64,000 bases of DNA, from NCBI RefSeq assembly GCF_963921235.1, contig NC_086097.1, positions 101,806,001 to 101,870,000 of the forward strand. The letters are read 5' to 3'. The position numbers and the translations under genes were made by a program. Shown here piece by piece: positions 993-62,657 of this stretch (its first letter is position 1; each line of letters opens with the position of its first letter). The notes under the pieces were generated by a model. The model searched no databases. It worked only from the letters and a program-made list of their open reading frames with translations, and was not told the origin of the DNA. Origin of the DNA: Mobula hypostoma (taxonomy: Eukaryota).

Positions 993-1030
993 CAGTCCTG
1001 ACGAAGGGTTCCGGCCCGAAACATTGACTG
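993..1030 (+). ncRNA. Minimal type-I hammerhead ribozyme motif, decayed around the cleavage site
   Basis: cagtc-CTGACGA-agggttccggccc-GAAA-catt-gactg. Stem I is cagtc/gactg. CGTC is changed to CATT, consistent with CpG transitions. Confidence 0.7.
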
Positions 1031-1273: not shown

Positions 1274-1353
1274 CTATGAAAAATGCTCTGGTGTTTGCAG
1301 TAGGATAACAAGGTGAAAGAGACAACCCTGCAGTTTTTCCATGCCCTGGAGTG

Positions 1354-1655
1354 CCAATCATACACCGAGGGGTGGCTTCATCCAATCAAACGCCAAGGTG
1401 TGGCTTCATCCAATCATACACCGAGGGGTGGCTTCATCCAATCACACACCGAGGGGTGGCTTCATCCAATCATACACCGAGGGGTGGCTTCATCCAATCA
1501 AACGCCAAGGTGTGGCTTCATCCAATCACACACTGAGGGGTGGCTTCATCCAATCATACACTGAGGGATGGCTTCATCCAATCACACCCCAAGGTGTGGC
1601 TTCATCCAATCACACACCGAGGTGTGGCTTCATCCAATCATACACCGAGGGGCGG
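1354..1655. repeat. 28-bp minisatellite, about 11 copies (ccaatcatacaccgaggggtggcttcat)
   Basis: Direct tandem repetition visible. It explains the repetitive ORFs at 1313-1728. Confidence 0.95.
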
Positions 1656-1879
1656 CTGGAATGCACAACCCTGTGGCTCCGGGTATGAGCTCTGCCCAGG
1701 GTGCGCTGAGGCATTCTTGTCTCTCTGAATGATTTAAAAAAAATAATTACATTGATACTCTCTCTGTTTCTAATTACCTCTACCAGCCAATCCATTCTAG
1801 CTCAACGGTAACATCTCAGAGGGCAGAAATTCCACCCTAATCAATACATACTCCTGAAGCACTCAGGTCATTACATCCT

Positions 1880-4454: not shown

Positions 4455-4606
4455 GATTCTGGCATCTTCCCCCTTCCTTTCCAGCCCTGAAGAAAGGTCT
4501 CAGTCCAAAACGTCAACTGTTTATTCATTTCCATAGACGCTGAGGTCCTCCAGCATTGTGCGCGCTGCTTTGGATTTCCAGCATCTGCAGAATTGCTCCT
4601 GTTTCT
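4455..4606 (+). mobile_element. Solo PLE 3' terminal-repeat fragment with degenerate hammerhead motif
   Basis: cagccCTGAAGAaaggtctcagtccAAAACGTCaactg...tcctccagcatt...ccagcatctgcaga is homologous to the PLE tails elsewhere in the window. Confidence 0.7.
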
Positions 4607-4619
4607 GATAGAAAACAGA

Positions 4620-5425
4620 AGCTGCTAATTGGAATAGAGGCAGAGAGGCATGAGCCTCTGTCTGAACACTCAACATTACTGATCTACAGAGGGATCTTAG
4701 GGTCTGAAAGTTGTTACACAAATCAACAGGGTAGTAAAGAGGTTGTGTGTCACACTTGCCTTCATTAGTTGAGGCACTGAGTTCAAGAGCCAGCATGTTG
4801 CAATCTTTCAAAACTCCAGTTACCCCACTTCAGGACTTTGCGTTCAAATCTGGTCTCTCCATTACAGGAAGGATATGGAGGCTATGGAATGGTGGGTGGT
4901 GGTGATATGGACCATGTGTAGGCAGAAGGGATGAGGTGTGATCAGATTGATTAGTGCAGGCCTGAGGGCCATTCCTTGGATATGGAGGCTATGGAATGGT
5001 GGGTGGAGTGATATGGACCATGTGTAGGCAGAAGGGATGAGGTGTGATCAGTTTGATTAGTGCAGGCCTGAGGGCCATTCCTTGGATATGGAGGCTATGG
5101 AACGGTGGGTGGAGTGATATGGACCATGTTTAGGCAGAAGGGATGAGGTGTGATCAGTTTGATTAGTGCAGGCCTGAGGGCCATTCCTTGGATATGGAGG
5201 CTATGGAATGGTGGGTGGAGTGATATGGACCATGTGTAGGCAGAAGGGATGAGGTGTGATCAGTTTGATTAGTGCAGGCCTGAGGGCCATTCCTTGGATA
5301 TGGAGGCTATGGAACGGTGGGTGGAGTGATATGGACCATGTGTAGGCAGAAGGGATGAGGTGTGATCAGTTTGATTAGTGCAGGCCTGAGGGCTATTCCT
5401 TGGGCTGTATTTTTCTATGTTCTAT
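4620..5425 (+). mobile_element. Internally deleted CR1 3' fragment whose end is tandemly amplified
   Basis: LAFI..G.EFKS / WS.HYRKD remnant at 4750-4890 and a CR1-type ttttctatgttctat tail near 5410-5424. Confidence 0.7.
4871..5402. repeat. 106-bp tandem repeat, 5 near-identical copies
   Basis: Units start at 4871, 4978, 5084, 5190 and 5296. Confidence 0.95.
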
Positions 5426-5860
5426 CCACCAGGTTCCCAGAACCCTTTGACTGCTTTCAACTAGAGAACTTGTTTCTTCCTGCTTTGACTCAACTTTTTC
5501 TGTCCTTATCAACCCCTTCCAGTGATACCTCCTATGCCCTGCCCCACTTTAACATGCTGACATTCCAATCTCTCCAGCATTCCTTCTGCATCTCAAATCC
5601 ACACCACGGTGGCCTGAGGGACCAACACTCTTTCCTTGAGCAGAGGTCCAAACAGTTCTGCTCCAACACCACCCAGTTACCTGACTCAACTCACCCTCAC
5701 ATTGAAGAGCTCTTCCCTGTACTCCATTCGTTACCTCCACATTAAAGGTGCAGTAAAGAGAATGAGTAATACCCGAACAACAGGAATTCTGCAGATGCTG
5801 AAAATTCAAGCAACACACATCAAAGTTGCTGGTGAACGCAGCATCTGTAGGAAGAGGTGC

Positions 5861-5896
5861 AGTCGATGTTTCAGGCCGAGACCCTTCGTCAGGACT
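5861..5896 (-). ncRNA. Minimal hammerhead ribozyme motif with one substitution (ACGT to ACAT)
   Basis: Reverse complement is agtc-CTGACGA-agggtctcggcct-GAAA-catc-gact. Confidence 0.75.
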
Positions 5897-6192
5897 AACT
5901 GAAGGAAGAGTGAGTAAGGGATTTGAAAGTTGGAGGGGGAGGGGGAGATCCAAAATGATAGGAGAAGACAGGAGGGGGAGGGATAGAGCCGAGAGCTGGA
6001 CAGGTGATAGGCAAAAGGGGATACGAGAGGATCATGGGACAGGAGGTCTGGGAAGAAAGACAAGGGGGGGGAACGACCCAGAGGATGGGCAAGAGGTATA
6101 TTCAGAGGGACAGAGGGAGAAAAAGGAGAGTGAGAGAAAGAATGTGTGCATAAAAATGAGTAACGGATGGGGTACGAGGGGGAGGTGGGGCC

Positions 6193-6519
6193 TTAGCGGA
6201 AGTTAGAGAAGTCGATGTTCATGCCATCAGGTTGGAGGCTACCCAGACGGAATATAAGGTGTTGTTCCTCCAACCTGAGTGTGGCTTCATCTTTACAGTA
6301 GAGGAGGCCGTGGATAGACATGTCAGAATGGGAATGGGATGTGGAATTAAAATGTGTGGCCACTGGGAGATCCTGCTTTCTCTGGCGGACAGAGCGTAGA
6401 TGTTCAGCAAAGCGGTCTCCCAGTCTGCGTCGGGTCTCGCCAATATATAAAAGGCCACACCGGGAGCACCGGACACAGTATATCACCCCAGTCGACTCAC
6501 AGGTGAAGTGTTGCCTCAC
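6193..6519 (-). CDS. PLE GIY-YIG endonuclease domain fragment (inverted arm)
   Basis: VIYCVRCSRCGLLYIGETRRRLGDRFAEH...QPDGMNIDF. Confidence 0.7.
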   Translation of the reverse strand: MRQHFTCESTGVIYCVRCSRCGLLYIGETRRRLGDRFAEHLRSVRQRKQDLPVATHFNSTSHSHSDMSIHGLLYCKDEATLRLEEQHLIFRLGSLQPDGMNIDFSNFR

Positions 6520-6749
6520 CTGGAAGGACTGTTTGGGGCCCTGAATGGTGGTAAGGGAGGAAGTGTAAGGGCATGTGTAGCACTTGTTCCGCTTACACGG
6601 TTAAGTGCCAGGAGGGAGAGCAGTGGGGAGGGATGGGGGGGACGAATGGACAAGGGAGTTGTGTAGGGAGCGATCCCTGCGGAATGCAGAGGGGGGGGGA
6701 GGGAAAGATGTGCTAGGATTCCTCCGTCTCCGCCGCATCTGCTCTCAGG

Positions 6750-7520
6750 ATGAGGCTTTTCATTCTAGGACGAGGGAGATGTCTTCCTTTTTTAAAGAAA
6801 GGGGCTTCCCTTCCTCCACTATCAACTCTGCCCTTAAACGCATCTCCCCCATTTCAAGTACATCTGCTCTCACTCCACCCTCCCGCCACCCCACTAGGAA
6901 TAGGGTTCCCCTGGTTCTCACCTACCACCCCACCAGCCTCCGGGTCCAACATATTATTCTCCGTAACTTCCGCCACCTCCAACGGGATCCCACCACTAAG
7001 CACATCTTTCCCTCCCCACCCCCCTGCATTCCGCAGGGATCGCTCCCTACACAACTCCCTTGTCCATTCGTTCCCCCCATCCCTCCCCACTCATCTCCCT
7101 CCTGGCACTTATCCGTGTAAGCGGAACAAGTGCTACACATGCCCTTACACTTCCTCCCTTACCACCATTCAGGGCCCCAAACAGTCCTTCCAGGTGAGGC
7201 AACACTTCACCTGTGAGTCGACTGGGGTGATATACTGCGTCCGGTGCTCCCAATGTGGCCTTTTATATATTGGCGAGACCCGACGCAGACTGGGAGACCG
7301 CTTTGCTGAACATCTACGCTCTGTCCGCCAGAGAAAGCAGGATCTCCCAGTGGCCACACATTTTAATTCCACATCCCATTCCTATTCTGACATGTCTATC
7401 CACGGCCTCCTCTACTGTAAAGATGAAGCCACACTCAGGTTGGAGGAACAACACCTTATATTCCGTCTGGGTAGCCTCCAACCTGATGGCGTGAACATCA
7501 ACTTCTCTAACTTCCGCTAA
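6750..7520 (+). CDS. PLE polyprotein C-terminus (GIY-YIG), 5'-truncated with a frameshift in the poly-C near 7020
   Basis: The RT C-terminal part (FLRLRRICSQDEAF...PLVLTYHP) is in ORF 6605..7120 and switches frame into this ORF near 7020. Confidence 0.75.
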   Translation: MRLFILGRGRCLPFLKKGASLPPLSTLPLNASPPFQVHLLSLHPPATPLGIGFPWFSPTTPPASGSNILFSVTSATSNGIPPLSTSFPPHPPAFRRDRSLHNSLVHSFPPSLPTHLPPGTYPCKRNKCYTCPYTSSLTTIQGPKQSFQVRQHFTCESTGVIYCVRCSQCGLLYIGETRRRLGDRFAEHLRSVRQRKQDLPVATHFNSTSHSYSDMSIHGLLYCKDEATLRLEEQHLIFRLGSLQPDGVNINFSNFR

Positions 7521-7814
7521 GGCCCCACCTCCCCCTCGTACCCCATCTGTTACTCATTTTTATGCACACATTCTTTCTCTCACTCTCCTTTTTCTCCCTC
7601 TGTCCCTCTGAATATACCTCTTGCCCATCCTCTGGGTCGTCCCCCCCCTTGTCTTTCTTCCCGGACCTCCTGTCCCATGATCCTCTCATATCCTCTTTTC
7701 CAATCAACTGTCCAGCTCTCGGCTCTATCCCTCCCCCTCCTGTCTTCTCCTATCATTTTGGATCTCCCCCTCCCCCTCCAACTTTCAAATCCCTTACTCA
7801 CTCTTCCTTCAGTT

Positions 7815-7850
7815 AGTCCTGACGAAGGGTCTCGGCCTGAAACGTCGACT
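7815..7850 (+). ncRNA. Minimal type-I hammerhead ribozyme, intact core
   Basis: agtc-CTGACGA-aggGTCTCGGcct-GAAA-C-GTC-gact. Stem I agtc/gact, catalytic boxes CUGANGA and GAAA, GUC cleavage triplet, palindromic ACGT in place of helix III. Confidence 0.85.
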
Positions 7851-8203
7851 GCACCTCTTCCTACAGATGCTGCCTGGCCCGCTGCGTTCACCAGCAACTT
7901 TGATGTGTGTTGCTTGAGTAATACCCGATTTGTTTTGGGATGCAGGTATTCAGCCCTAAGCAGGCTTTATTTCATTAACCATCATTGTTTCACATTCCAC
8001 TACAGCCATCAATCTTTTCCTCTATTTATACCTCCTCAGACGGATTCGTGTTGCTTACTTCAATGGCACCATAAGAAATTCTGTCAACTGGCCAACCCCA
8101 GTCTCCACTTTATCACGGAAATTCATAGAGATCTAGAATGACACAACACAGAAACAGGCCCTTTCTTCAACTGCTCCATGCCAGTCAAGATATCCATCTA
8201 AAC

Positions 8204-21253: not shown

Positions 21254-22186
21254 CTCTACAACTTAAAACACAGTTGCTTTCACTTTAAAAAGTGTTTAGT
21301 ATATTTTGTATTTACCATGGAGAAGGACATGGAATCCAGTGAGTTCAGGTCAGAAAACAGTGATATCCTGAAACGTGTTAACATCACGAAGGAGAAGCTT
21401 TCAACAGTCTTTAAGTGCATGAAGATAGATTGACGAGGTGTGTCCCAGCAGGTGTGGGAAGCAAGGGAAGAAATTTCTGGAACACGGGGCTGCTGGATAG
21501 GACTGTTTCCCTGGAGCAAGAAACTAAAGAGCTGTAGGCACATATTATAGAAACCAGCCTCCTGACAATAGACCCTGTTCACACTTCTCCTGGACATTCT
21601 CTCTTCAGCCCCTTCTCAATGGGAGGAAGATACACAAGACCATAACGCCAGGATCAAGGACAACATCTCTCCCATAGTTTTAAGACTATTGAACTCTCAT
21701 CTAGTATGCTCTACGGTGGACCTTTGGCCTCACCATCTACTTACGATAGCCTTGCACATGGGCCACCGGCACTGCACTTTCTCTGTAAGTGTATCACTAC
21801 TTTCTGCACTCTGTTATTGCTTTTCCCTTGAACTACCTCAATGTGATGAAGTGATCTGAATGGATGGCGCACAAAGCAAAGTTTTTCACCGTACCTCAGT
21901 ACATGTGACAATAACAAACCAACTTACCACTACGAATGGATCTGCCAGCCTTCAGTGTTGTAGCACACAGGAAGCATCAATTAGAGGTGCAGTTGTAAGT
22001 GTACTGGACCAACGGATGTGATTAGATTAGATTAGATTCAACTTTATTGTCATTGTGCCGAGTACAGATACAAAGCCAATGAAATGCATTTAGCATCTGA
22101 CCAGAAATGCAAAGAATAGTGTTATTTACAAAATAACTACAAATTTAAAAAGTGCTATAGCACACAAATATAAAAGTACTGAGAGA

Positions 22187-22422
22187 GTTTAGCGCTGTGA
22201 TGTGAGGTTTAGCGCTGTGATGTGAGGTTCAGCGCTGTGATGTGAGGTTTAGCGCTGTGATGTGAGGTTCAGCGCTGTGATGTGAGGTTTAGCGCTGTGA
22301 TGTGAGGTTTAGCGCTGTGATGTGAGGTTTAGCGCTGTGATGTGAGGTTCAGCGCTGTGATGTGAGGTTTAGCGCTGTGATGTGAGGTTTAGCGCTGTGA
22401 TGTGTGGTTCAGCAGTGTGATG
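22187..22422. repeat. 20-bp minisatellite, about 11.5 copies (gtttagcgctgtgatgtgag)
   Basis: Direct tandem repetition with t/c variants. Confidence 0.97.
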
Positions 22423-23476
22423 AAGTGAGAAGCAAGTGGATGGTGGAACTGCAACGCTGATGGGAAAAGAGAGAAGAGAAAATGTATTGGATGGTGGAAT
22501 CTTATTGGGGGGAATTAGGAAGGGTGATCTGACAAATGTGGAGGCTGGTACAAAACTAAAGAGCTATTTAATGAGGGAAATGAAGGTGTAGAGGGTCAGT
22601 AACTTTAAATTCCCTGACAATACGTCCTCCTCATCGTAAAGGAGCACTACCATAAGACAGCAGCATCCATCATCAAGGACCCCCATGCTCTCTGCCATCA
22701 GGAAGGAGGCCCAGGAGCCCTGTGTGCGACACTGCCAGATTCAGGAACAGTTATTACCCTTCCACCATCGGGCTCCTGAACCAACGTGGATAACTTCACT
22801 CACCTCAACGCTGAACTGACTGCACAACGCATAGACCCACTCTGAAGGTTCTACAACTCAAGCTCTCAGTATTCTATTACTTATCTACATTGACCTCCAC
22901 TGGACCCTCTTCAATGCTGGCACTTTTCAACTTCTAGTTCAATTGTCATTCAGCCATACACGAATACCCATGAATACAGCCAAACGAAAGAGTTCCTCGG
23001 GAGCCAAAACACACGACCAACAGCCATACCAGAACAAGGCAATGTAGTAGATATAAGATAGCACTAAACATACAGTCACACAAAAAAAATTACACAGCCT
23101 GAGTCCCTGAGTGACATGCCCTGTGAATTGTGCGTGGGTGTTATCGGCAAAAACAAGCAGTTCTCCCCAGTCCACAGAATGGTATAGTCGAAATCCACCA
23201 GTTGACCACTAGAGGGCCGCACCAATGGGAGAGACCAGCCCCCCTACCCAGCATGGGCACTGCGCTACACCACCTCCGGTCACCTCTCCGGGACAGCTGC
23301 AACAGGTAAACCCACAGCTTCCACAATATCCCAAATCCAGGCTGACTGATGCTGCAAGTCATTCTTGTTATCGGTGGACAGCAGGAGGATTAGGGTGGGG
23401 ATGGGGGCATGTGAGAGGGACAAGTTGAACAAATGGGATTGCTCTGACAGCCACCATGAACATGACGAGTCCTGTT

Positions 23477-24654: not shown

Positions 24655-24842
24655 TGTGACAGTGTTGTCACAGACACAGGAAATGAAGTGCCAGTGTGAC
24701 AATGACATCACGGACAGAGGAAATGAAGTGCCAGTGTGACAGTGACATCACAGACACAGGAAATGAGGTACCAGTGTGACAGTGACATCACAGACACAGG
24801 AAATGAAGTGCCAGTGTGACAGTGACATCACAGACACAGGAA
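24655..24842. repeat. 40-bp minisatellite, about 4.5 copies
   Basis: cacagacacaggaaatgaagtgccagtgtgacagtgacat units at 24669, 24709, 24749, 24789 and a partial unit at 24829. Confidence 0.93.
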
Positions 24843-25373
24843 CTGAGATACCCAAAGAGTGCTGCCAGTACTACACAGAGCATGGATGGTATACTACCGA
24901 GTGAAACCATGATCCCCTTATCCCAGTGAACTGTCTCCATCTGTCTTCAATCAAAGAATTCTTTGCTTTATTCCAAACTGATGTATGAACCTCAATTTCA
25001 GCAATGTTTGAATGTATCAAAAAATCTGTAGAATACCTCACTCCCTCTTTAATATCATCATTCAGCAAACATTCATTTTGTTTCCAAAAATACATGAAAG
25101 AGATCAAGCCCTGTCTTTATCTGAATTACTGAAGCCTCACAGAATATCATATTTCTGTTGGGATGCTTCCTGACCCATCCCTCCCTTCTCAATATCTAAT
25201 AGTTCTGGCTTAGCATGCTGTATTGTTTGAAAGGGAAAACACAGGCTCATTCTAAGTATTTAGAACTTAAACTACTTTTCATCTCTCGCAGCTCTCTTCC
25301 CTTTCTTGATCTGTCTCCACCTCTGGGGACAGACCATGTACCAATCATTTACAAACCTACTGACTCTCAGTTA

Positions 25374-26435
25374 ACAACAGGAATTCTGCAGATGCTGGAA
25401 ATTCAAGCAACATACATCAAAGTTGCTGGTGAACGCAGCAGGCCAGGCAGCATCTATAGGAAGAAGCGCAGTCGACGTTTCAGGCCGAGACCCTTCGTCA
25501 GGACTAACTGAAGGAAGAGTGAGTAAGGGATTTGAAAGCTGGAGGGGGAGGGGGAGATGCAAAATGATAGGAGAAGACAGGAGGGGGAGGGATGGAGCCG
25601 AGAGCTGGACAGGTGATAGGCAGAAGGGGATACGAGAGGATCATGGGACAGGAGGTCCGGGAAGAAAGACGGGGGGGGGTGACCCAGAGGATGGGCAAGA
25701 GGTATATTCAGAGGGACAGAGGGAGAAAAAGGAGAGTGAGAGAAAGAATGTGTGCATTAAAAAGAGTAACAGATGGGGTACGAGGGGGAGGTGGGGCCTA
25801 GCGGAAGTTAGAGAAGTCAATGTTCATGCCATCAGGTTGGAGGCTACCCATACGGAATATAAGGTGTTGTTCCTCCAACCTGAGTGTGGCTTCATCTTTA
25901 CAGTAGAGGAGGCCGTGGATAGACATGTCAGAGACCGCTTTGCTGAACATCTACGCTCTGTCCGCCAGAGAAAGCAGGATCTCCCAGTGGCCACACATTT
26001 TAATTCCACATCCCATTCCCATTCTGACATGTCTATCCACGGCCTCCTCTACTGTAAAGATGAAGCCACACTCAGGTTGGAGGAACAACACCTTATATTC
26101 CATCTGGGTAGCCTCCAACCTGATGGCATGAACATCGACTTCTCTAACTTCCGCTAAGGCCCCACCTCCCCCTCGTACCCCATCTGTTACTCTTTTTAAT
26201 GCACACATTCTTTCTCTCACTCTCCTTTTTCTCCCTCTGTCCCTCTGAATATACCTCTTGCCCATCCTCTGGGTCACCCCCCCCCCCGTCTTTCTTCCCG
26301 GACCTCCTGTCCCATGATCCTCTCGTATCCCCTTCTGCCTATCACCTGTCCAGCTCTCGGCTCCATCCCTCCCCCTCCTGTCTTCTCCTATCATTTTGCA
26401 TCTCCCCCTCCCCCTCCAGCTTTCAAATCCCTTAT
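25374..26435. mobile_element. Young fold-back PLE insertion: minus arm 25374-25932, plus arm 25931-26435
   Basis: Inverted arms and a 13-bp TSD tgactctcagtta (25361-25373, 26436-26448). Same family and same acaacagg start as 5777-7914. Confidence 0.94.
25470..25505 (-). ncRNA. Minimal type-I hammerhead ribozyme, intact core
   Basis: Reverse complement agtcCTGACGAagggtctcggcctGAAAcgtcgact is identical to 7815-7850. Confidence 0.85.
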
Positions 26436-29357
26436 TGACTCTCAGTTACCTCGGCTATACCTCTTCCCACACAGTCACTTTGAAAAAATTGTCTTCCCTT
26501 CTCCCATTCTTCTACCTCCACAACATCTGTTCTCGGGGTGTGGTTTTCCATTCTAGAACATTTGATGGGAGCAGTGTGGAGAGGAGTAAACTACAGTACA
26601 GAAGGGACAAGCGGGGTGGCCATTGTTGGGAGTGGGCCAGTGGTGAGAGTGGGAGTGTCAGGCTTCAGCTCGGAAGAGGCGTTAGCTCTGAGTAAGCTGT
26701 CTGGGTAAGTTTCTGTTAAGTTTCCCTATTTTCTTACTGTGTCAGGGGTACTTAGTGTAGTTTAAATGGTGACTGTGTGTTCTTCATGCCGTATGTTGGA
26801 GTCCTGGGAGACCCAGAGTCTCCCAGGGAACTACATCTGCGTGAAGCGCATCCGGCTGCAGCTCCTTGAAGACTGTTTTGGGGACCTGGAGCAGCAGTTG
26901 GGAGAGTGAGGATATAATCGATCAGAGTTACAGGGAAGTAGTAAACCCGAAGTTGCAGGAGGCGAGTAGTTGGGTGACGGTCAAAATGAATGGGACAGTG
27001 GCTAGGCAGTTATTGCAGAGCACACCAGTGGCCACTCCCCTCAATAATAAATATACAGTTTTGGATACTGTTGTGGGGGATGACCGCCCAGGGGAATGCC
27101 ACGGAGACCGGGTTACTAACATTGAGTATGGGTCCGTGGTGCAGAAGGGAAAGAGAGAGAAGAAGGAAGCAGTAATGATAGGGGACACAATAGTCTTAGG
27201 AACAGACTGGAGATTCCATGGACGTGAACTGGACACTGGAATGGTATGCTGCTTCCCAGGTATGTCTCAGGTCATGTCCACAGTATTTTGGAGGGGGAGG
27301 AGAGCAGCCAGATATCTTGGTACATATTGATGCCAATGACATAGGAAGGAAAAGCAAAGGGTTCCTGAAGAGAGAATTTAGAGAGCCAGGCAGAAAGCTG
27401 AGAAGCAGGACCTGCTGGGTAGTAATTTCTGGATTGCTGCCTGTGCATGTGCCAGTGAGGGTAGAAACAGGATGATTTGGCAGATTTCTGCGTGGCTGAG
27501 AAGCTGGTGCAGGGGCAGGGCTTCAGGTTCCTGGATCACTGGGGTCTCCTCTGGGGAGGTATGACCTGTTCAAAAGTGACGGGTTGCACCTGAACCCGAG
27601 GGTGACTGATATTCTCATGGGCAGGTTTGTTACAGCTGTTGGGGAGGGTTTAAACTAATTTGCAAGGAACCAGAGAGAAGGGACTCAGGATAGGACGGAT
27701 GGTAAAAAAAGCAAAGATAGTGTACAGTCAGACTGTCAGGAAGGACAGGCAGATGATAGAACAAAATTGCAGCCAGCAGGATGAGTATCAGCACATTGGG
27801 GATGCAGAATCAAAAAGTTTCGCAAATACAGCACTCAAAGTGTTATATCCCAATGCACGGAGTACAAGAAATACGGTAGATGATCTTGTTGCACTATTAC
27901 AGATTGTCAGGTATTATGTCGTGACCATCACTGAATGGTGGCTGAAGGATGGTTGTAGTTGGGAGCTCAATGTCCAAGGCTACACGTTATATCAGAGGAA
28001 TAGGAAGGTCGGCAGAGGGGGTGGTGTGGCTCTGCTGGTAAAGGATGGCATCAAATCAGTAGAAAGATGTTGAATCCGTGTGGGTTGAGTTAAGGAACTG
28101 CAAAGGTAAAAGGACCCTGATGGCAGTTACATACAGGCCTCCCAACAGTAGCTGGGATGTGGACTACAGATTACAATGGGATATAGAAAAGGCGTATCAA
28201 AAGGGCAATGTTATGATAGTCATGGGAGATTTTAACATGCAGTTAGACTGGGAAAATCAGGCTGGTAATGAATCTCAAGTGAGTGCCTATGAGATGGCTT
28301 TTTAAGAGCAGCTCGTCATTAAACCTTATAGGGGATCAGCTATACTGGATGCAATGATCCGGAGGTGATTAGGGAGCTGAAGGTAAAGGAACACTTAGGA
28401 GGCAGCGATCACAATATGATTTGAGTTCAACATTGAAATTTGATAGGGAGAAAGTAAGGCTGATATAGCAGTATTTCAGTGTGATAAAGGAAATTATAGT
28501 GGTACAAGAGAGGAGCTGGCCAAACTGGAAGGAGATGCAGGCAGGGGTGACAGCAGAGCAGCAATAGTGTGAATTTCTAGGAAAAGTGAGGAACGTGCAG
28601 TGTAGATATATTTCAAAAACAAAGAAACACTCAAAATGGCACAATAGTACAGCCATGGCTGACAAGGGAAGTCAAAGCTAATGTAAAAGCAAAAGGGAGG
28701 CCATACAACAAAGCAAAAATTAGCAGGAAGATAGAGGATTGGGAAGCTTTTAAAAACCTACAGAAGACAGCTAAAATAATTATTGGGAGGGAAAGAATGA
28801 AATATGAAAGCAAGCAAGCAAACAATAGCAAGGTGGACAGAAAAAGCTTTCTCAAGTGTGTAAAAAATAAAAGAGAAATGAGAGTGGATATAGGACTGCC
28901 GGAACATGAGGCTGGAGAAATAAAAACAGGAACAAGGAGATGGCAGATGAACTAAATGAGTATTTTAAATCAGTCTTCATTGTAGAAGACATTAGTAGTA
29001 TGCCAGACATTGAAGGATGTGAGGGAAGAGAAGTGAGTACAGTTAATATTACAAGGGAGAAAGTGCTCAAAAAGCTGAAGGACCTTAAGGTACTTAAGTC
29101 ACCCGGACCAGATGAACTGCACCCTAGGGTTCTGAATGAGGTAGCGGTAGTGATTGTGGAGGCATTAGTAATGATCTTTCGATAATCATTGGGCTCTGGC
29201 ATGGTTCTGGAGTACTAGAAAATTGCAAATGTCACTCCATTCTTTAGGAAAGGAGGAAGACAGCAAAAAGAAAATTATAGACCAGTTAGCCCGACCTCAG
29301 TGGTTGCGAAGAAGTTGGAGCATGAGGTTATGGAATACTTACTGACACAGGACAAGA

Positions 29358-30648: not shown

Positions 30649-33600
30649 CAGCCTTTCTCAACCTTCCTGCCCTGGAGGAATCCTTGAAATAACTTCCAGG
30701 TCTCAGGGCACCCCTGCATAAAAATCATTACATCTACATCTCACAGTAAGTTAGTGTGATCAGCAAGTTGTAGATATAATAATCCAAAAATATTTGTCAG
30801 CGCTCCTGAGTAAAAAATGATTATTTAGCCAACCTTTCCTGAAAAAAATATTGTTAAGATTAGTTTACCTTTCTTGAAATTACTCTTTCTCTTTCATAAA
30901 TTTTAAAAGCTAAGGCAAACATAATAAATTTCTCAATTCTGGGTTGAACTTGAGATACATGGATTTCAGCTCCAACTGAAATGAGATGATTTCTACCCTT
31001 GATACTTATTAAACAAAAAAAAGCTTGCTCACACATGTAAGAAGTTGAAAACTGCACCAAAATATTGATTGCTTTCCTATGAATGGCAGGATACTCTTCT
31101 TTCACAGAAATCCAGAACTTACCCAGGGGCAGGTCAGTAAATCCCATCCTAAGTGCACGATCAGAGTGCAGCTTACAAAGTTCTTCCTCTTCTCTCAAAG
31201 TCAAGTTCTCAGGCTGCACAAAAGATTCAGAGAAAGGATCCCTCACCCAGTCATACATTTGTTTTGAAAGGGAGGAAAAGTACTGTTCAATTTTGTTCTG
31301 CAGTTCTTCCAGGTAGTTTTCAGTAAGACTTGAGACTTTATGATATCCTCCCTCACTCTCAAGCCCAAGCAGCAGTGGAAACATTTCAAGATTTCCTTTT
31401 GTGGAATGTTTTTCCTAAGATTCAGTTTCCTTTTAAATCCACGAATCTTATCACTTGAAGTCAAAACATTTTCTCCAGGGCCTTGCAGAGACTTGCTCAA
31501 CTGGTTCATATGATGAAAAACGTTTGTCAAATAGGCTAGTTTCTGCACCTATTCTTCACCTTCAAAGTACTCAGCGAAATCTGGCCTACTACTTTATTTT
31601 AAGTACTCTTGCAATTCACCCAAAAGAGCTCAAACACTGTTGTGAACTCGTCCTCTGTGTGTAGCAGGAAATTGGTGTGTTCTTTGTCCAGGTTTTCACA
31701 CAGATTTTTAAACACTCTCGAGTTAACTGGTCTTAGAGCTACTAAATAACTTGCTTGCTGAACCGTGTAACTGACTATGACTTTATTTTCATAAGCTTTA
31801 ATCTGTTTGTTCCGAGGTTTCAATAGTCGTTTCAAATAATCAGCAATTTTACGTGTCATATGTTTGTGATTTGTAGTTAAGTGTCTTTTCAATTTTGCCA
31901 TTGCTACTTTTGTAGGTTGTTTGCCACAGACCAGGCACAATGCAATAGGACAACTTGGATCACCAGTCCATGTAAAACCCATTGATAAGTAGCTTTCGTT
32001 GTAAAGATACGGTACCGGCTGATTACTTCGTCCTGCCCATTGCTTTTGTCTCCAGGACCTAGGAGAGGGGTGGATGACTTCTGGGGGCAACGGGAGGCAT
32101 CGGGTCTCTGCTGTGGTCCTGAGTCTCCCAATCGCGAAGGGCGGTCAGTCATTGGTGTGTGTGCGCATACGTAACTGGTAGCTGTCTGCCACAGGATCTG
32201 CAGATATACCTGTATACCGACCACCCTGCGAGACCGCATGCGCTGGCAACGCACTTTCCCCACCTGAGACACTGCTGGCTTCTAGCGGACAGCACCAGAT
32301 ATGCCGCTTTGAGGGAACTGCCTCGCTTTCACCGAGAGCTGTTGAGAGTTTGGGGTCTAATCTCATCCAGACAGGTGCTCCTGCACCGATGGCGGGCGGT
32401 GCTGCAGCTGCGAGGGGACTAGTCCCCGTCCCATCACGCTGGGTGTTGAGGGGGTTCAGGGAAGTGGAGGGGTTCCGGCTGCACCACCACCACCCGGTGG
32501 GCGGGAATCGCCTGTCAGACCCAGGCCCCGGAATACCACTCGGGAGAGGGCCCTGAACAACGTGAGCCATCACGTGGGGTTTCCCACCGTGCCCGTCCGT
32601 GATGCTCCAAAGTGCTTCTTGTACGGGCTGCTCCTGCACACCTTTCACTTCCTCGCCTTTGTCTGCCGACCAGACTCGCCTTGGCGGTCCGTGTTACCAT
32701 CAGGCAGCAGAGGAGGTCCCCAGAGGAAATCTCTTTATGCAGGGGACCTGCAGTACCGTACGACAGGTCTTTAAGCAGGTACTGACACGCCGTCCTCCTG
32801 TCCGTTCTGTGGCCGGGAGGAGTCAGTGTACCACGCTTGCACAGAGTGTGAGCGGTTGCAGCCCCTGTCTGAGTGTCTGAACGGGCTGCTGCTCAGGTTC
32901 TGGTTGCACATCAGCCCCGCGCTCCTCATCTACAGGCAGGGGCAGGCCGGCACAAGGATCTCGCTCCTGGGCCTGGCCAAGATGCCCTTTCACAGGTCGA
33001 GGGGGTAGAAAGTCGAGGGCTCTGCCAGGGCGGACTGCCTGTCCCTCTTCCGAGGGTGGGTTGGTGCCGGCTGTCCTCGGAGAGGGAGCATGCCATCACA
33101 ATGGGTACAGTGGGGGGTTTCCAGGATGCTGGGCCCACCAGGGAACTGACTGTCTTAGAGACAGTAATGAGTATATTTTAATTTGCATTTATTCACTGTC
33201 TTGTAAATACTGAATGTTTGTACTTTGTGTATCTGTTACGTGAATCAACTTCTTTTGTTTTGTAAAAACCAGATGGACTTTTTTGTGTCAGTTGTTGCAC
33301 TAGTGCAGTGAAATGACTCAGAAGATTGTTATTCTTCATCATTAACCTTATCAGAATTGTCTGTCAGCAGCACACAAGGGGAAACTGGGGGAGGTAATTC
33401 GGGAGGGAGAGGCTGACGTCACAGCCCGAGTTGGGCAAGTCCATTGAATACTCGTAAAATGCATTTCACACTCATCAACAGCCTGCTGTCCTCCCCTCTG
33501 CAATATAGCCCTCACCAATTATCAGCCTACTGGTCTCCAATGGCCTCCCCTATCTAGCACTTAAAAACTGAGAAGGGAGTTGAGCAAACAAACACAGTCC

Positions 33601-50220: not shown

Positions 50221-50414
50221 TATCATTTGACTGCACCGTTAGGCTTTCTGCTGCTTATCGTTTGCCTACCTGTTCTATTTTGTTTTTACATTGACTACAT
50301 GTGAAAAGATTCCATTGGTAGGAGACACTTTGTGATGTTGTAGGATGAAAATAGGCAGTGTGCAAATCGAAATGCTTTCCCTTTCTGCCAGCAGCTGCCT
50401 TGATATGATTGGAG

Positions 50415-50703
50415 AATGTGGAATGCATCACCCAGCACGCAGAACGCAACACTCAGCATGTGGAATGCATCACCAGAACGTGGAACGCAACACCCTACAT
50501 GTGGAATGTATCACCACAACGTGGAACGCATCACCCTGCATGTGGAACACATCACCAGAAGGTGTAATGCATCACCTGTTCGTGGAATGCATCACCCAGC
50601 ACGTGAAACGCATCACCCAGCACGTAGAACGCATCACCCAGCACATAGAACGCATCACCCTGCACGTGAAACGCATCACCCTGAACGTGAAACACATCAC
50701 CAG
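50415..50703. repeat. 21-bp minisatellite, about 14 diverged copies (gtggaacgcatcacccagcac)
   Basis: Tandem periodicity. It produces the HVERIT-repeat ORFs. Confidence 0.9.
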
Positions 50704-51299
50704 TATGTACAACCAGGTTTCACTCAGATCTTGAGCTGAGCTCAGAGGTCAGTCTCCTGAGTCAGAAGAACAAATGAAAAGCAGCACGAAAGCCTATAGG
50801 ACTGGAAAAGCAGATTTAATTTGTGACTGCAATGATATTATAACCCAGTGACTGAGATTGGAAAGGGCTCCAAAGTTGAAAGCAACTTCCATTCAATAAT
50901 AAGATGTAAGAATCCATTAAAAACATTCTTATCAGCTATTATATGAAAATTAGATTCCTCTATTCAAAAGCAATGAGAGAAATTTACAAGAAAGGGTGTA
51001 AAATAGATTTTCCCATGGATCAGTTAAAATAAACATGATATTGCAATAGTCCCTCGACTAAACTCATATGATTCAATGGGTCACTGCAAGTTGGCCAGGA
51101 TGAGATACAGATAAACCATGAACCAACTCTATTGGGGAATAATATCCATCCCCCTATTTCTAAGAAACAGGCTGTAAACCTCTTTGGCTACAGGCTTGAG
51201 AACCTTCCCAAAATCTTCTTCAAGTCCAAAGGCACAGCAGAAAAAGAAAGGTTTTCTTCCTTCCACATCTGTGGAGGAAAATAAACAGGCTCAGACTCT

Positions 51300-51415
51300 T
51301 TGACTCAAAACATCGACTGTTTATTTCCCTCCACAGATGCTGCCTGACCTGCTGAGGTCCTCCAGCATCTTGTGTGTGTTGCTCAAGATTATCAACATCT
51401 GCAGAATCTCTTCTG
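51300..51415 (+). mobile_element. Solo PLE terminal fragment
   Basis: aaaacatcgactg...gatgctgcctgacctgctgag..tccagca...catctgcagaatctc. Confidence 0.7.
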
Positions 51416-54945: not shown

Positions 54946-55692
54946 TAGCCTCTGTTTATCACAGCCTGCTATCGTGGACATCCTGTACAATACCACCCAG
55001 GACATGCTACCATTTGGGAGGAGGAGCCCATATCAATGAATCCACATCAAAGCACCTTCTTTCCCTCACCATCAGATTTCAGAATAGTCCACAAGTCCAT
55101 TAATATTACCTTGTTACTCCTTTCTTTTGTAATTTGTGGTAATTTTATGTCTTTGCACCTGCCTTGCTAATCCAACCTCAAATCAAGAATGGAAACAGAG
55201 ATAAAGAGTAGATCTGAAAGATTACATTGCAATACAAGAAAATGATGATGAGTAACTTTAAAAAAATAATTAAACCTGAATATATGCAATTTTAAACTTG
55301 TAGTTTAAATTTCATAAACAATCATCACTAATCACTTAGCAACACGCAAAGCACTGGAAGAACTCAGCTGCATTTATGGAGGGAAATGGACAGTCAGCAT
55401 CTTGGATCGAGGTTTAAATGCATTCCAGAATAAGGATCTCAACCCAAAATATCAACTGTTTATCTCTTTCCAGAAATGCTCCTGGCCCGAGTTTCTCCAG
55501 CACTTCTTGTATTGCTCCAAATTCCAGCATCTGCAGTCTCTTCAGTCGATCACTCTTTCAGTCAGAGAACTACAACAGTATTTGTCTAAACATTTACATT
55601 AGATTTGGTCTATATCTAAGAGATTCACAAAGAAAAACAAAATGCTTTGCCAATCAGGTGGTATCTGTGGACAGAGTAAACCAGGGATGTAT

Positions 55693-55820
55693 GACGAAGG
55701 GTCTCGGCCTGAAACGTCGACTGTACCTCTTCCTAGAGATGCTGCCTGGCCTGCTGAGTTCACCAGCAACTTTGATGTGTGTTGCTTGAATTCCCAGCAT
55801 CTGCAGAATTCCTGTTGTTT
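55693..55820 (+). mobile_element. 128-bp PLE 3' terminus truncated inside the hammerhead core
   Basis: (t)gacgaagggtctcggcctgaaacgtcgact...cctgttgtt. 7-bp TSD gatgtat (55686-55692, 55821-55827). Confidence 0.85.
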
Positions 55821-61645: not shown

Positions 61646-62657
61646 ATAGAGAGAATCTGCAGACGATGGAAATCCAAGCAACACACACAAAATGCTGGAG
61701 GAACTCAGCAGGCCAGGCAGCATCTATGGAAAAAACAGTTGACATTTCAGGCCGAGACCCTTCATCAAGACTGGAGAAAAAAAGATGAGAAGTCAGAGTA
61801 AGAAAGTGTGGGGAGGGGACCCTTCATCAAGACTGGAGAAAAAAAGATGAGAAGTCAGAGTAAGAAAGTGTGGGGAGGGGAGGGAGAAACACAAGGTGAT
61901 AGGTGAAACTGGGAGGTTGAAGTAAGGAGCTGGGAAGTTGATTGGTGAAAGAGATACAGGGCTGGAGAAGGGGGAGTCTGATAGGAGAGGACAGAAGACC
62001 GTGGAAGAATGAAAAGGTGGGAGGAGCGTCAGAGGGAGGTGATGGGAAGGGGATAAGGTGAGAGAGGGAAAAGGAGATGGGGAATCGTGAAGGGGAGGTG
62101 GGGCATTACCAGAAGTTCGAGAAATCAATATTCATGCCATCAGGATGGAGGCTTCTCAGACGGAATATAAGATGTCGTTCCTCCAACCTGAGTGTGGCCT
62201 CATCGTGACGGTGGAGGAGACCATGAATTGACATATCGGAATGGGAATGGGAAGTGGAATTAAAATGGGCAGCCACTGGGAGATCCCACTTTTTCTGGTG
62301 GACAGAGACAGTGCTCAGTGAAGCAGTCTCCCAGTCTACGTCGGGTCTCACCGATATACCGGAGGTCACCAGGAGCAATCAGCGCAACAGGCTCACATGT
62401 TAAATGTCACCTCACTTGTTCACACCCACCCGCCACTTTCTGCTTTTCACAGGGATCGTTCCCGACACAACTCCTTTGTCCATTCGTCACTCCCCACTGA
62501 TCTCCCTCCCGGCACTTACCCTTGCGAGTGTAACAAGTGCTACACCTGCCCCGACACCTCCTCCCTCACAATCATTCAGGGCCCTAAACAGTCCTTCCAG
62601 GTGAGGCGACACTTCACCTGTGGGTCTGATGGGGTCATTTACTGTGTCCGGTGCTCA
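61646..62657. mobile_element. Older PLE with inversion: minus arm about 61646-62418, plus arm about 62419-62657
   Basis: ORF 62106..62378(-) is the GIY-YIG C-terminus and ORF 62397..62690(+) is the CxxC/VIYCVRC part. Degenerate hammerhead at 61737-61772(-). 61-bp tandem duplication at about 61757-61880. Confidence 0.85.

What the first reader, a model, noticed from the sequence alone, without database searches (positions are those of the whole stretch)
7815..7850. Intact minimal hammerhead ribozymes in the terminal repeats of a young Penelope family
Seen: agtc-CTGACGA-aggGTCTCGGcct-GAAA-C-GTC|gact occurs identically at 7815-7850(+) and 25470-25505(-). Variants occur at 993-1030, 5861-5896, 55692-55722 and 61737-61772, always at the same position in the PLE 3' repeat. 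Established: PLE pseudo-LTRs carry minimal type-I hammerheads whose helix III is reduced to a palindromic tetranucleotide (here ACGT) and which are thought to cleave as dimers. Inference: this family encodes a self-cleaving RNA that cuts after GUC (7846) and may define transcript ends. It could also cut a host pre-mRNA passing through. A gene-centred annotation would miss this.
Basis: partly seen in the sequence, partly recalled or inferred. Interest (0 to 1): 0.72.

Follow-up and report, generated by a model that had tools for sequence, protein, structure and literature searches.

The report
Hammerhead motif in ray Penelope remnant
This 36-base stretch has every sequence feature of the tiny self-cutting RNA motif that Penelope-type jumping genes are already known to carry, but here it sits in a truncated, frameshifted copy where it is predicted to be buried in a long hairpin and is likely inactive, so it is an ordinary example of a known kind.

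Summary
7815-7850(+) equals 25470-25505(-) and fits the published minimal hammerhead of Penelope-like elements (PLEs): CUGACGA, one extra A, stem II, GAAA, palindrome ACGU, cut predicted after C7846. A descriptor finds 4 such sites against 0.015 in shuffles. Corrections: stem II more likely closes with G7827-U7838; only 2 of the 6 listed copies are intact; all visible copies are 3' ends of truncated insertions, not paired terminal repeats. The host element is a Neptune-type PLE, probably of a ray. Across subfamilies, homology breaks exactly at the two edges of stem I, so the motif was kept in source elements, but no two-sided covariation was seen. The cut does not mark insertion ends: 3' ends lie about 70 or 100 nt beyond it, and 0 of 3 short copies start at it. 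In a read-through RNA the 7815 copy is predicted to pair fully with the antisense of its inverted twin (5861-5896), which argues against cutting a host message; no host exon was found. Cleavage was not testable. The class was described in 2014 and a relative tested in 2024; this scan noted the same thing before on other DNA, including this genome.

The parts
7815..7850 (+). Minimal type-I hammerhead motif, intact: stem I 7814-7818 with 7847-7851; C3-A9 7819-7825; extra A 7826; stem II 7827-7830 with 7835-7838 (G-U closing pair); GAAA 7839-7842; palindrome ACGU 7842-7845; C17 7846, predicted cut 7846|7847
5777..7914 (.). Insertion A: two 5'-truncated PLE 3' ends joined head to head at 6714|6715; 14-bp target duplication at 5763-5776 and 7915-7928; only the left (minus) arm carries the last 29 nt (tail)
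6715..7520 (+). 3' part of the PLE ORF (end of RT thumb, C-x4-C-x2-C linker, GIY-YIG endonuclease); 5'-truncated, with a frameshift near 7020; stop ends at 7520, 299 nt before C3
5861..5896 (-). Twin motif in the inverted arm of insertion A; G16.2A breaks the palindrome; its antisense is predicted to pair with 7815-7850 in a plus-strand transcript
7851..7914 (+). Short variable spacer, then the conserved block 3' of the motif; this arm stops 29 nt short of the tail end
25470..25505 (-). Second intact motif, identical to 7815-7850; 100 nt from the predicted cut to the tail end at 25374
25374..26435 (.). Insertion B: head-to-head arms joined near 25931; 13-bp target duplication at 25361-25373 and 26436-26448; the plus arm stops about 20 nt before the motif
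55692..55820 (+). Short insertion of the young subfamily, 7-bp target duplication; starts inside the core (no C3, no 5' strand of stem I)
993..1030 (+). Motif of an older subfamily, 271 nt after the stop of a PLE ORF end (14-727); stem II closes G-C; palindrome lost
4483..4519 (+).
51296..51415 (+).
61737..61772 (-). Decayed motif of an older subfamily (C3U, C15.2U, G1.1A)

Best explanation
The stretch is a minimal hammerhead-ribozyme motif carried in the 3' end of a Neptune-type Penelope-like retroelement, and this copy is likely an inactive passenger of a truncated, head-to-head insertion. In full-length source elements the motif likely cuts the element's RNA after GUC only weakly, with help from the element's own protein or a second copy (inferred from published relatives, not tested here). 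The RNAs that were copied into this window had not been cut here: reverse transcription likely began about 100 or about 70 nt downstream of the cut and ran through the uncut motif. Both nicked target strands were likely extended on RNA of one source element, giving two arms whose 3' ends face outward, with target duplications. After insertion the copies decay, mostly at CpG sites. In any read-through transcript the 7815 motif is predicted to be held in a roughly 900-bp hairpin with its inverted twin.
For: Shown: motif anatomy and rarity; fit to the published consensus of PMC4209133, Fig. S3; PLE ORF end upstream with the C-x2-5-C-x2-C linker (definition in PMC8557442); 91% identity over 170 aa to a Mobula protein; target duplications, inverted arms and one-sided tail, as described in PMC8557442 and PMC3846280; loose-end peaks of DNA contigs at 25469 and 25505, the two edges of stem I; 76-87% identity of the motif between subfamilies against 40-62% upstream; both arms of an insertion share 9 diagnostic columns. 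Predicted: the naked monomer prefers a rod in which G5-G8 pair with C15.2-C17 (-11.0 against -7.0 kcal/mol), and two copies prefer a plain duplex (-30.3) to the double hammerhead (-11.5); burial in the hairpin. Published: the anole Poseidon hammerhead cut only with protein present, its mutants still inserted, RT began internally at two sites downstream, and no RNA-seq reads ended at the cut (PMC11167929); a schistosome minimal motif did not cut as a monomer and cut weakly as a dimer (PMC4209133).
Against: No two-sided covariation: 0 of 9 pairs in 8 copies, and the structure scores below its shuffles; the copies are few, close and decayed, so the test is weak. The block 3' of the motif is about as conserved (40/50 and 43/50 in two older copies), so conservation alone does not single out catalysis. 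Energy models ignore the tertiary contacts of the hammerhead core and co-transcriptional folding. The RNA runs were contigs only and cannot show RNA ends. One joint row in run X1 links the tail end to exactly G1.1. Clade assignment rests on the linker motif, not on an RT tree.
Confidence: 0.85

Rival explanations
1. One reading: in source elements two tandem motifs cut as a dimer and so define the ends of a unit-length, possibly circular, RNA that is the normal template for insertion.
For: Proposed in PMC4209133. The palindrome and all core bases are intact in 2 copies. Insertions that run through an uncut motif would also arise from a re-ligated circle. One X1 joint row joins the tail end (25373) to G1.1 (25473), depth 47.8, among 8 X1 rows shown in table 5c; another joins it to 25423 instead.
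Against: 0 of 3 short copies start at the cut. No loose-end peak at 25473/25474 among the 18 rows shown, though 1284 rows were hidden. The double hammerhead is predicted far less stable than alternatives. Cleavage was not needed for insertion in vitro in the anole element. 1 of 9 Xenopus dimer constructs cut in a 2026 preprint.
Confidence: 0.2
2. The motif is kept mainly as part of a structural, protein-binding or splicing signal at the element's 3' module, and catalysis is incidental or lost in this family.
For: The downstream block and tail are about as conserved as the motif. About three quarters of the laid depth has U rather than C at 11.1. A pyrimidine tract ending in AG forms the 5' strand of stem I in 7 of 8 copies' alignment rows except where truncated, and in Drosophila virilis an intron ends at helix I. 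Naiad PLEs spread without canonical hammerheads.
Against: The only freely varying core position among subfamilies is N7 (C, A, U), the position left open in the published consensus. G-U at 10.1-11.1 occurs in several published motifs. No GT-AG intron joint among the 15 joints shown; 95 were hidden.
Confidence: 0.15
3. The 7815 or 25470 motif cuts a host pre-mRNA that is transcribed through the locus.
For: The family is present in two runs guessed to be RNA (11,970 and 8,187 contig records laid). The 25470 motif lies just outside insertion B's hairpin.
Against: The 7815 motif is predicted to be paired at all 38 positions with 5860-5897. No intact same-strand partner exists in the window. At 25470 the predicted fold is not a hammerhead either. 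No host exon found among 160 ORFs by Pfam; all hits were mobile-element domains, which does not exclude a long intron. Contigs do not show that this locus is transcribed.
Confidence: 0.04
4. Chance match of short boxes in repetitive DNA.
For: The loose core pattern alone is near chance; Rfam has no match; the fold is no more stable than shuffles, z -0.37.
Against: Full descriptor 4 against 0.015; fixed position in a PLE 3' end in all 8 copies; fit to the published consensus.
Confidence: 0.01

Closest known systems
Minimal hammerheads (min-HHR) of metazoan PLEs (Cervera and De la Pena 2014, PMC4209133)
   Same: Type I; CUGANGA plus one extra base; G at 10.1; GAAA; palindromic 15.2-16.2 with no helix III loop; NUH triplet; short helix I; U-rich 5' flank; solitary copies in 5'-truncated elements; reported there for Neptune, Poseidon and Xena elements of fishes.
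   Different: No cartilaginous fish among the Fig. S3 and Table S1 entries that I read (supplement parts 1-2 of 3). Stem II is short (4 bp) and closes mostly with G-U, a variant also present in their cichlid, Xenopus (1) and Latimeria (1) rows.
Poseidon element of the green anole, PAc (Frangieh et al. 2024, PMC11167929)
   Same: Hammerhead upstream of two reverse-transcription start sites that define the tail. There the cut is at +26 and RT starts at +111 to +118; here insertion ends lie about 70 and 100 nt beyond the cut.
   Different: Different clade (Poseidon). In PAc the ORF starts within stem II; here no long ORF follows the motif within the available 100 nt and no full-length element is in the window. 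PAc was tested in vitro; this family was not.
Insertion unit of endonuclease-positive PLEs (Craig et al. 2021, PMC8557442; Arkhipova et al. 2013, PMC3846280)
   Same: 5' truncation, adjacent inverted copy, 30-40 nt tail at one end only, target-site duplication.
   Different: Neither insertion has a direct-repeat pair of pLTRs or a whole ORF; the tail here is 29 nt.
Non-LTR retrozymes (Cervera and De la Pena 2020, PMC7229834; Li et al. 2026 preprint 10.64898/2026.07.22.740005)
   Same: Type-I hammerhead related to PLE pLTRs; reported for one cartilaginous fish genome in the preprint.
   Different: Retrozymes are tandem arrays with a motif in each unit; these copies are solitary and attached to PLE ORF ends.

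Membership tests
PLE minimal hammerhead (PMC4209133) | Core boxes CUGANGA and GAAA, NUH triplet | tested here: met
   CUGACGA 7819-7825, GAAA 7839-7842, GUC 7844-7846
PLE minimal hammerhead (PMC4209133) | Unpaired base between positions 9 and 10.1 | tested here: met
   A7826; register favoured 0.87-0.97 against 0.02
PLE minimal hammerhead (PMC4209133) | G10.1-C11.1 closing pair (over 80% consensus) | tested here: inconclusive
   G-U here; G-C in the 993 copy and in 20-28% of laid depth; G-U also in published rows
PLE minimal hammerhead (PMC4209133) | Helix III reduced to a palindrome | tested here: met
   ACGU 7842-7845
PLE minimal hammerhead (PMC4209133) | Short helix I flanking the cut | tested here: met
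   5 pairs, outermost U-G
PLE minimal hammerhead (PMC4209133) | Position in the PLE terminal repeat, same strand as the ORF | tested here: met
   299 nt and 271 nt after the stop in two subfamilies
PLE minimal hammerhead (PMC4209133) | Compensatory changes in stems across family members | tested here: inconclusive
   0 of 9 pairs with a two-sided change in 8 close or decayed copies; 4 one-sided pair types; no genome was held for a larger sample
PLE minimal hammerhead (PMC4209133) | Self-cleavage (weak; as dimer or protein-assisted) | not testable with these tools
   needs bench assay or raw RNA reads; only contigs were available
Neptune clade of EN+ PLEs | C-terminal GIY-YIG endonuclease | tested here: met
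   PF01541 E 6.5e-4, 20.4 bits, under the 22.6 cut-off; full-length relative P0005 has RT then this domain
Neptune clade of EN+ PLEs | C-x2-5-C-x2-C linker between RT and EN (shared with Nematis) | tested here: met
   CKRNKCYTC and CKRKCYTC; cysteines invariant in 8 of 8 aligned proteins
Neptune clade of EN+ PLEs | RT phylogeny groups with Neptune | not tested
   RT core is absent from the window's copies; Neptune over Nematis is inferred from the vertebrate distribution in the 2026 preprint
EN+ PLE insertion unit | Inverted 5'-truncated copy, one-sided tail, target duplication | tested here: met
   insertions A and B
Non-LTR retrozyme | Tandem units each with a hammerhead | tested here: not met
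   no tandem of motif-bearing units in the window
Canonical hammerhead families of Rfam | Match at gathering score | tested here: not met
   0 matches in 64 kb

The most novel reading that the evidence does not exclude
The ray motif is a self-locked ribozyme: its own core (G5-G8) pairs with the helix III palindrome and C17, and the element's protein unlocks it on binding the 100-nt module downstream. Because the module is scattered at very many loci, expression of one active element would switch on cutting in host transcripts that carry a free copy, and the released 100-nt piece (cut to tail) would itself be copied into the genome, as the single tail-to-G1.1 joint in run X1 hints.
Probability: 0.06. 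Interest if true: 0.55.

Novelty: new member of a known kind. Interest (0 to 1): 0.13.

Why it matters
As it stands it adds a cartilaginous-fish example to a class known since 2014. The role of PLE hammerheads is still open in the papers read, and this high-copy family would be a convenient sample for a genome-wide test of whether insertion ends ever fall at the cut. These particular copies are unlikely to do anything. It would matter more if protein-assisted cutting of host transcripts were shown.

Tried and rejected
No whole genome is held for this window, so no genome-wide alignment of copies. Rfam: 0 matches. A 24-nt pattern from the conserved block 3' of the motif found 0 stretches in metagenome and in viral contigs. 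The search for related loci could not use alignment A2; with single proteins it gave 5 distant metagenome loci (27-44% identity) and 0 of 32 confirmed in prokaryotic genomes. Of those 5 loci, 1 (L001) gave a weak descriptor hit with a 3-bp stem I, which I do not count. Raw-read run X21 laid 0 reads. Variable places in the motif against its flanks: 1 of 38 against 12 of 76 (one-sided Fisher p 0.03), but p 0.26 against the whole stretch and 20 of 60 rows were hidden, so it is not used as support. The idea of a splice acceptor at stem I or 20 nt after the cut found no supporting joint among 15 shown and stays open. A paper search for G10.1 with U11.1 found 0 papers; penelope + neptune + shark found 1 unrelated paper; penelope + twin priming + inverted found 2 unrelated papers. 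Look-ups of earlier scan notes by place and by sequence found nothing. Retrozyme reading rejected: no tandem units.

Full report
1. Observation. The 36 bases at 7815-7850(+) are identical to 25470-25505(-). In standard hammerhead numbering (recalled, and as used in PMC4209133): C3-A9 = 7819-7825, an extra A at 7826, stem II 7827-7830 with 7835-7838, G12-A15.1 = 7839-7842, C15.2 G16.2 U16.1 = 7843-7845, C17 = 7846; stem I pairs 7814-7818 with 7847-7851. The bare pattern CTGANGA-N4-30-GAAA is near chance (12 against 7.3). A descriptor that also demands both stems gives 4 sites against 0.015 in 200 shuffles. Rfam has no match at gathering scores.

2. The other copies. Eight copies lie in the window, two more than listed. 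Two are intact. 5861(-) and 993(+) have ACAU in place of ACGU. 55692(+) starts inside the core. 61737(-) has C3U, C15.2U and G1.1A. 4483(+) has G12A, G10.1A and G1.1A. The copy near 51300(+) starts within stem II. Most changes are transitions at CpG sites; the 38-nt motif holds 4 CpGs. That they arose after insertion is inferred. That C3U and G12A impair catalysis is recalled.

3. The element. Upstream, on the same strand, lies the 3' end of an ORF with a C-x4-C-x2-C linker and a GIY-YIG domain (Pfam E 6.5e-4, under the cut-off). The linker marks Neptune and Nematis PLEs (PMC8557442, passages). The closest longer proteins are from Hypanus sabinus and Mobula hypostoma (4 of 8 hits; 91% over 170 aa to P0002), so the host is probably a ray. 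The ORF at 6715-7520 is 5'-truncated and frameshifted. The motif lies 299 nt after the stop, and 271 nt in the older copy at 14-1130. The other Pfam hits among 160 ORFs are LINE and DNA-transposon domains; no host exon was found (the second scan took 144 of the 183 ORFs of 62 aa or more outside self-repeats, six of the longest having been scanned).

4. Insertion anatomy. Insertion A (5777-7914) and insertion B (25374-26435) each consist of two 5'-truncated 3' ends joined head to head, between target duplications of 14 and 13 bp. In both, the left arm ends at the tail end, 100 nt beyond the predicted cut. The right arm of A ends 29 nt earlier; the right arm of B ends about 20 nt before the motif. 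Both right ends share a few bases with the target duplication. The arms differ at 19 of 905 columns in A, and in B at 8 of 421, of which 5 lie in target-duplication columns that I included by mistake, leaving 3. At 9 columns both arms of A agree against both arms of B (3 of these in a poly-C tract where alignment is uncertain), so both arms likely came from one source element; conversion between arms is the alternative. This architecture is described in PMC8557442 and PMC3846280 (passages), and two internal RT start sites that explain the tail in PMC11167929 (main text, parts 1-2 of 4). PMC3846280 reads the head-to-head form as self-priming on an antisense template instead; I did not test that.

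5. Conservation. Against three older copies the motif is 32, 29 and 33 of 38 identical; the 100 nt upstream are 40-62% identical, the 14-nt spacer 8-9 of 14, the next 50 nt 40, 26 (with a 12-nt deletion) and 43 of 50, the tail 21, 28 and 25 of 30. In one search (4 runs laid on 25340-25935; X1 DNA contigs, X10 and X14 guessed RNA contigs, X21 raw DNA reads with 0 laid), three of the six X1 loose-end rows shown fall at the tail end (25373, 281 records) and at the two edges of stem I (25469, 294; 25505, 257). The loose letters at 25505 match the 4483 copy for 21 nt. The only variable place shown inside the motif is 11.1 (C in 23%, 20% and 28% of depth); 20 of 60 rows were hidden. No two-sided covariation was found in the 8 copies. 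The motif fits the Fig. S3 consensus of PMC4209133, where G-U at 10.1-11.1 also occurs (supplement parts 1-2 of 3); I saw no cartilaginous fish in that list.

6. Does it cut, and where does it matter? Untested. Nearest-neighbour energies put a rod, with G5-G8 paired to C15.2-C17, 4 kcal/mol below the open hammerhead, and a plain two-copy duplex (-30.3) far below the double hammerhead (-11.5); these models omit core tertiary contacts. PMC4209133 (parts 1-2 of 4) reports no monomer cleavage and weak dimer cleavage for a schistosome motif. PMC11167929 reports cleavage only with protein, no need of it for insertion in vitro, and no RNA-seq ends at the cut. Here, 0 of 3 short copies start at the cut, all 3' ends lie beyond it, and no loose-end row at the cut is among the 18 shown (1284 hidden). 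Against this reading: one X1 joint row links the tail end to exactly G1.1 (depth 47.8); another links it to 25423. For host RNA: a plus-strand transcript across insertion A is predicted to pair all 38 positions of the motif with 5860-5897; a minus-strand transcript across B leaves the motif outside the long hairpin but folds it otherwise. No intact same-strand partner exists in the window.

7. Known or new. The class, its place, its decayed solitary copies and the insertion form are in print. A 2026 preprint (parts 1-2 of 5 and passages; its supplements are closed and may name the cartilaginous fish and its families) finds hammerhead-bearing retrozymes and PLEs in one chondrichthyan. PMC7229834 was seen as passages. 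Searches found no paper on this ray family. Earlier scan notes report the same motif and insertion form in shark-like genomes and in this genome; they are unchecked notes and not support. Verdict: a real motif, a new member of a known kind, likely inert at this locus; interest 0.13.

Noticed in passing
window 5763-7928 and 25361-26448: At the short-arm end of both insertions the target duplication resembles the element sequence that would follow (3 shared bases in A, 6 of 7 in B), as expected if the second nicked strand primed inside the RNA by microhomology (twin-priming-like; the L1 parallel is recalled).
   Followed up: partly
window 25373 and 25473 (run X1): One joint row links the element's tail end, plus 4 further bases, to exactly G1.1, the first base after the predicted cut; depth 47.8, one of many joints.
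   Followed up: no
window 7795-7816 and 7852-7866, and the older copies: A pyrimidine tract ending in AG forms the 5' strand of stem I, and a second tract ending in YAG lies about 20 nt after the cut, followed by ATG; both look like splice acceptors. No supporting joint among 15 shown.
   Followed up: partly
window 4462-4482: The 21 nt upstream of the 4483 motif match the loose-end consensus at the 5' edge of stem I in run X1, after which that consensus loses coherence; a subfamily of short copies may start about 21 nt before stem I.
   Followed up: partly
window 61773-61860 (minus strand): A tandem duplication of about 60 bp repeats the pyrimidine tract and the first half of the motif just upstream of the 61737 copy.
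   Followed up: no
window 25374: In other copies the element continues past this tail end by about 5 more conserved bases (loose ends at 25373 in X1 and X10), so tail ends are heterogeneous.
   Followed up: no
window 32020-33150: A 1.1-kb G+C-rich (0.60), CpG-rich stretch with no Pfam hit in the ORFs scanned, next to a decayed hAT-like transposase (30860-32144).
   Followed up: partly
window 1298-1717, 4902-5431, 22147-22482, 24655-24854, 50413-50701: Tandem arrays with units of 28, 106, 20, 40 and 21 bp.
   Followed up: no
P0001 and P0004: Ray proteins annotated as isoforms of host genes consist largely of this PLE ORF, probably exonised or mis-annotated elements.
   Followed up: no
L001:3933: A weak hammerhead-like hit (3-bp stem I, palindromic 6-nt helix III) about 660 nt downstream of a distant RT match in a metagenome contig.
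   Followed up: no
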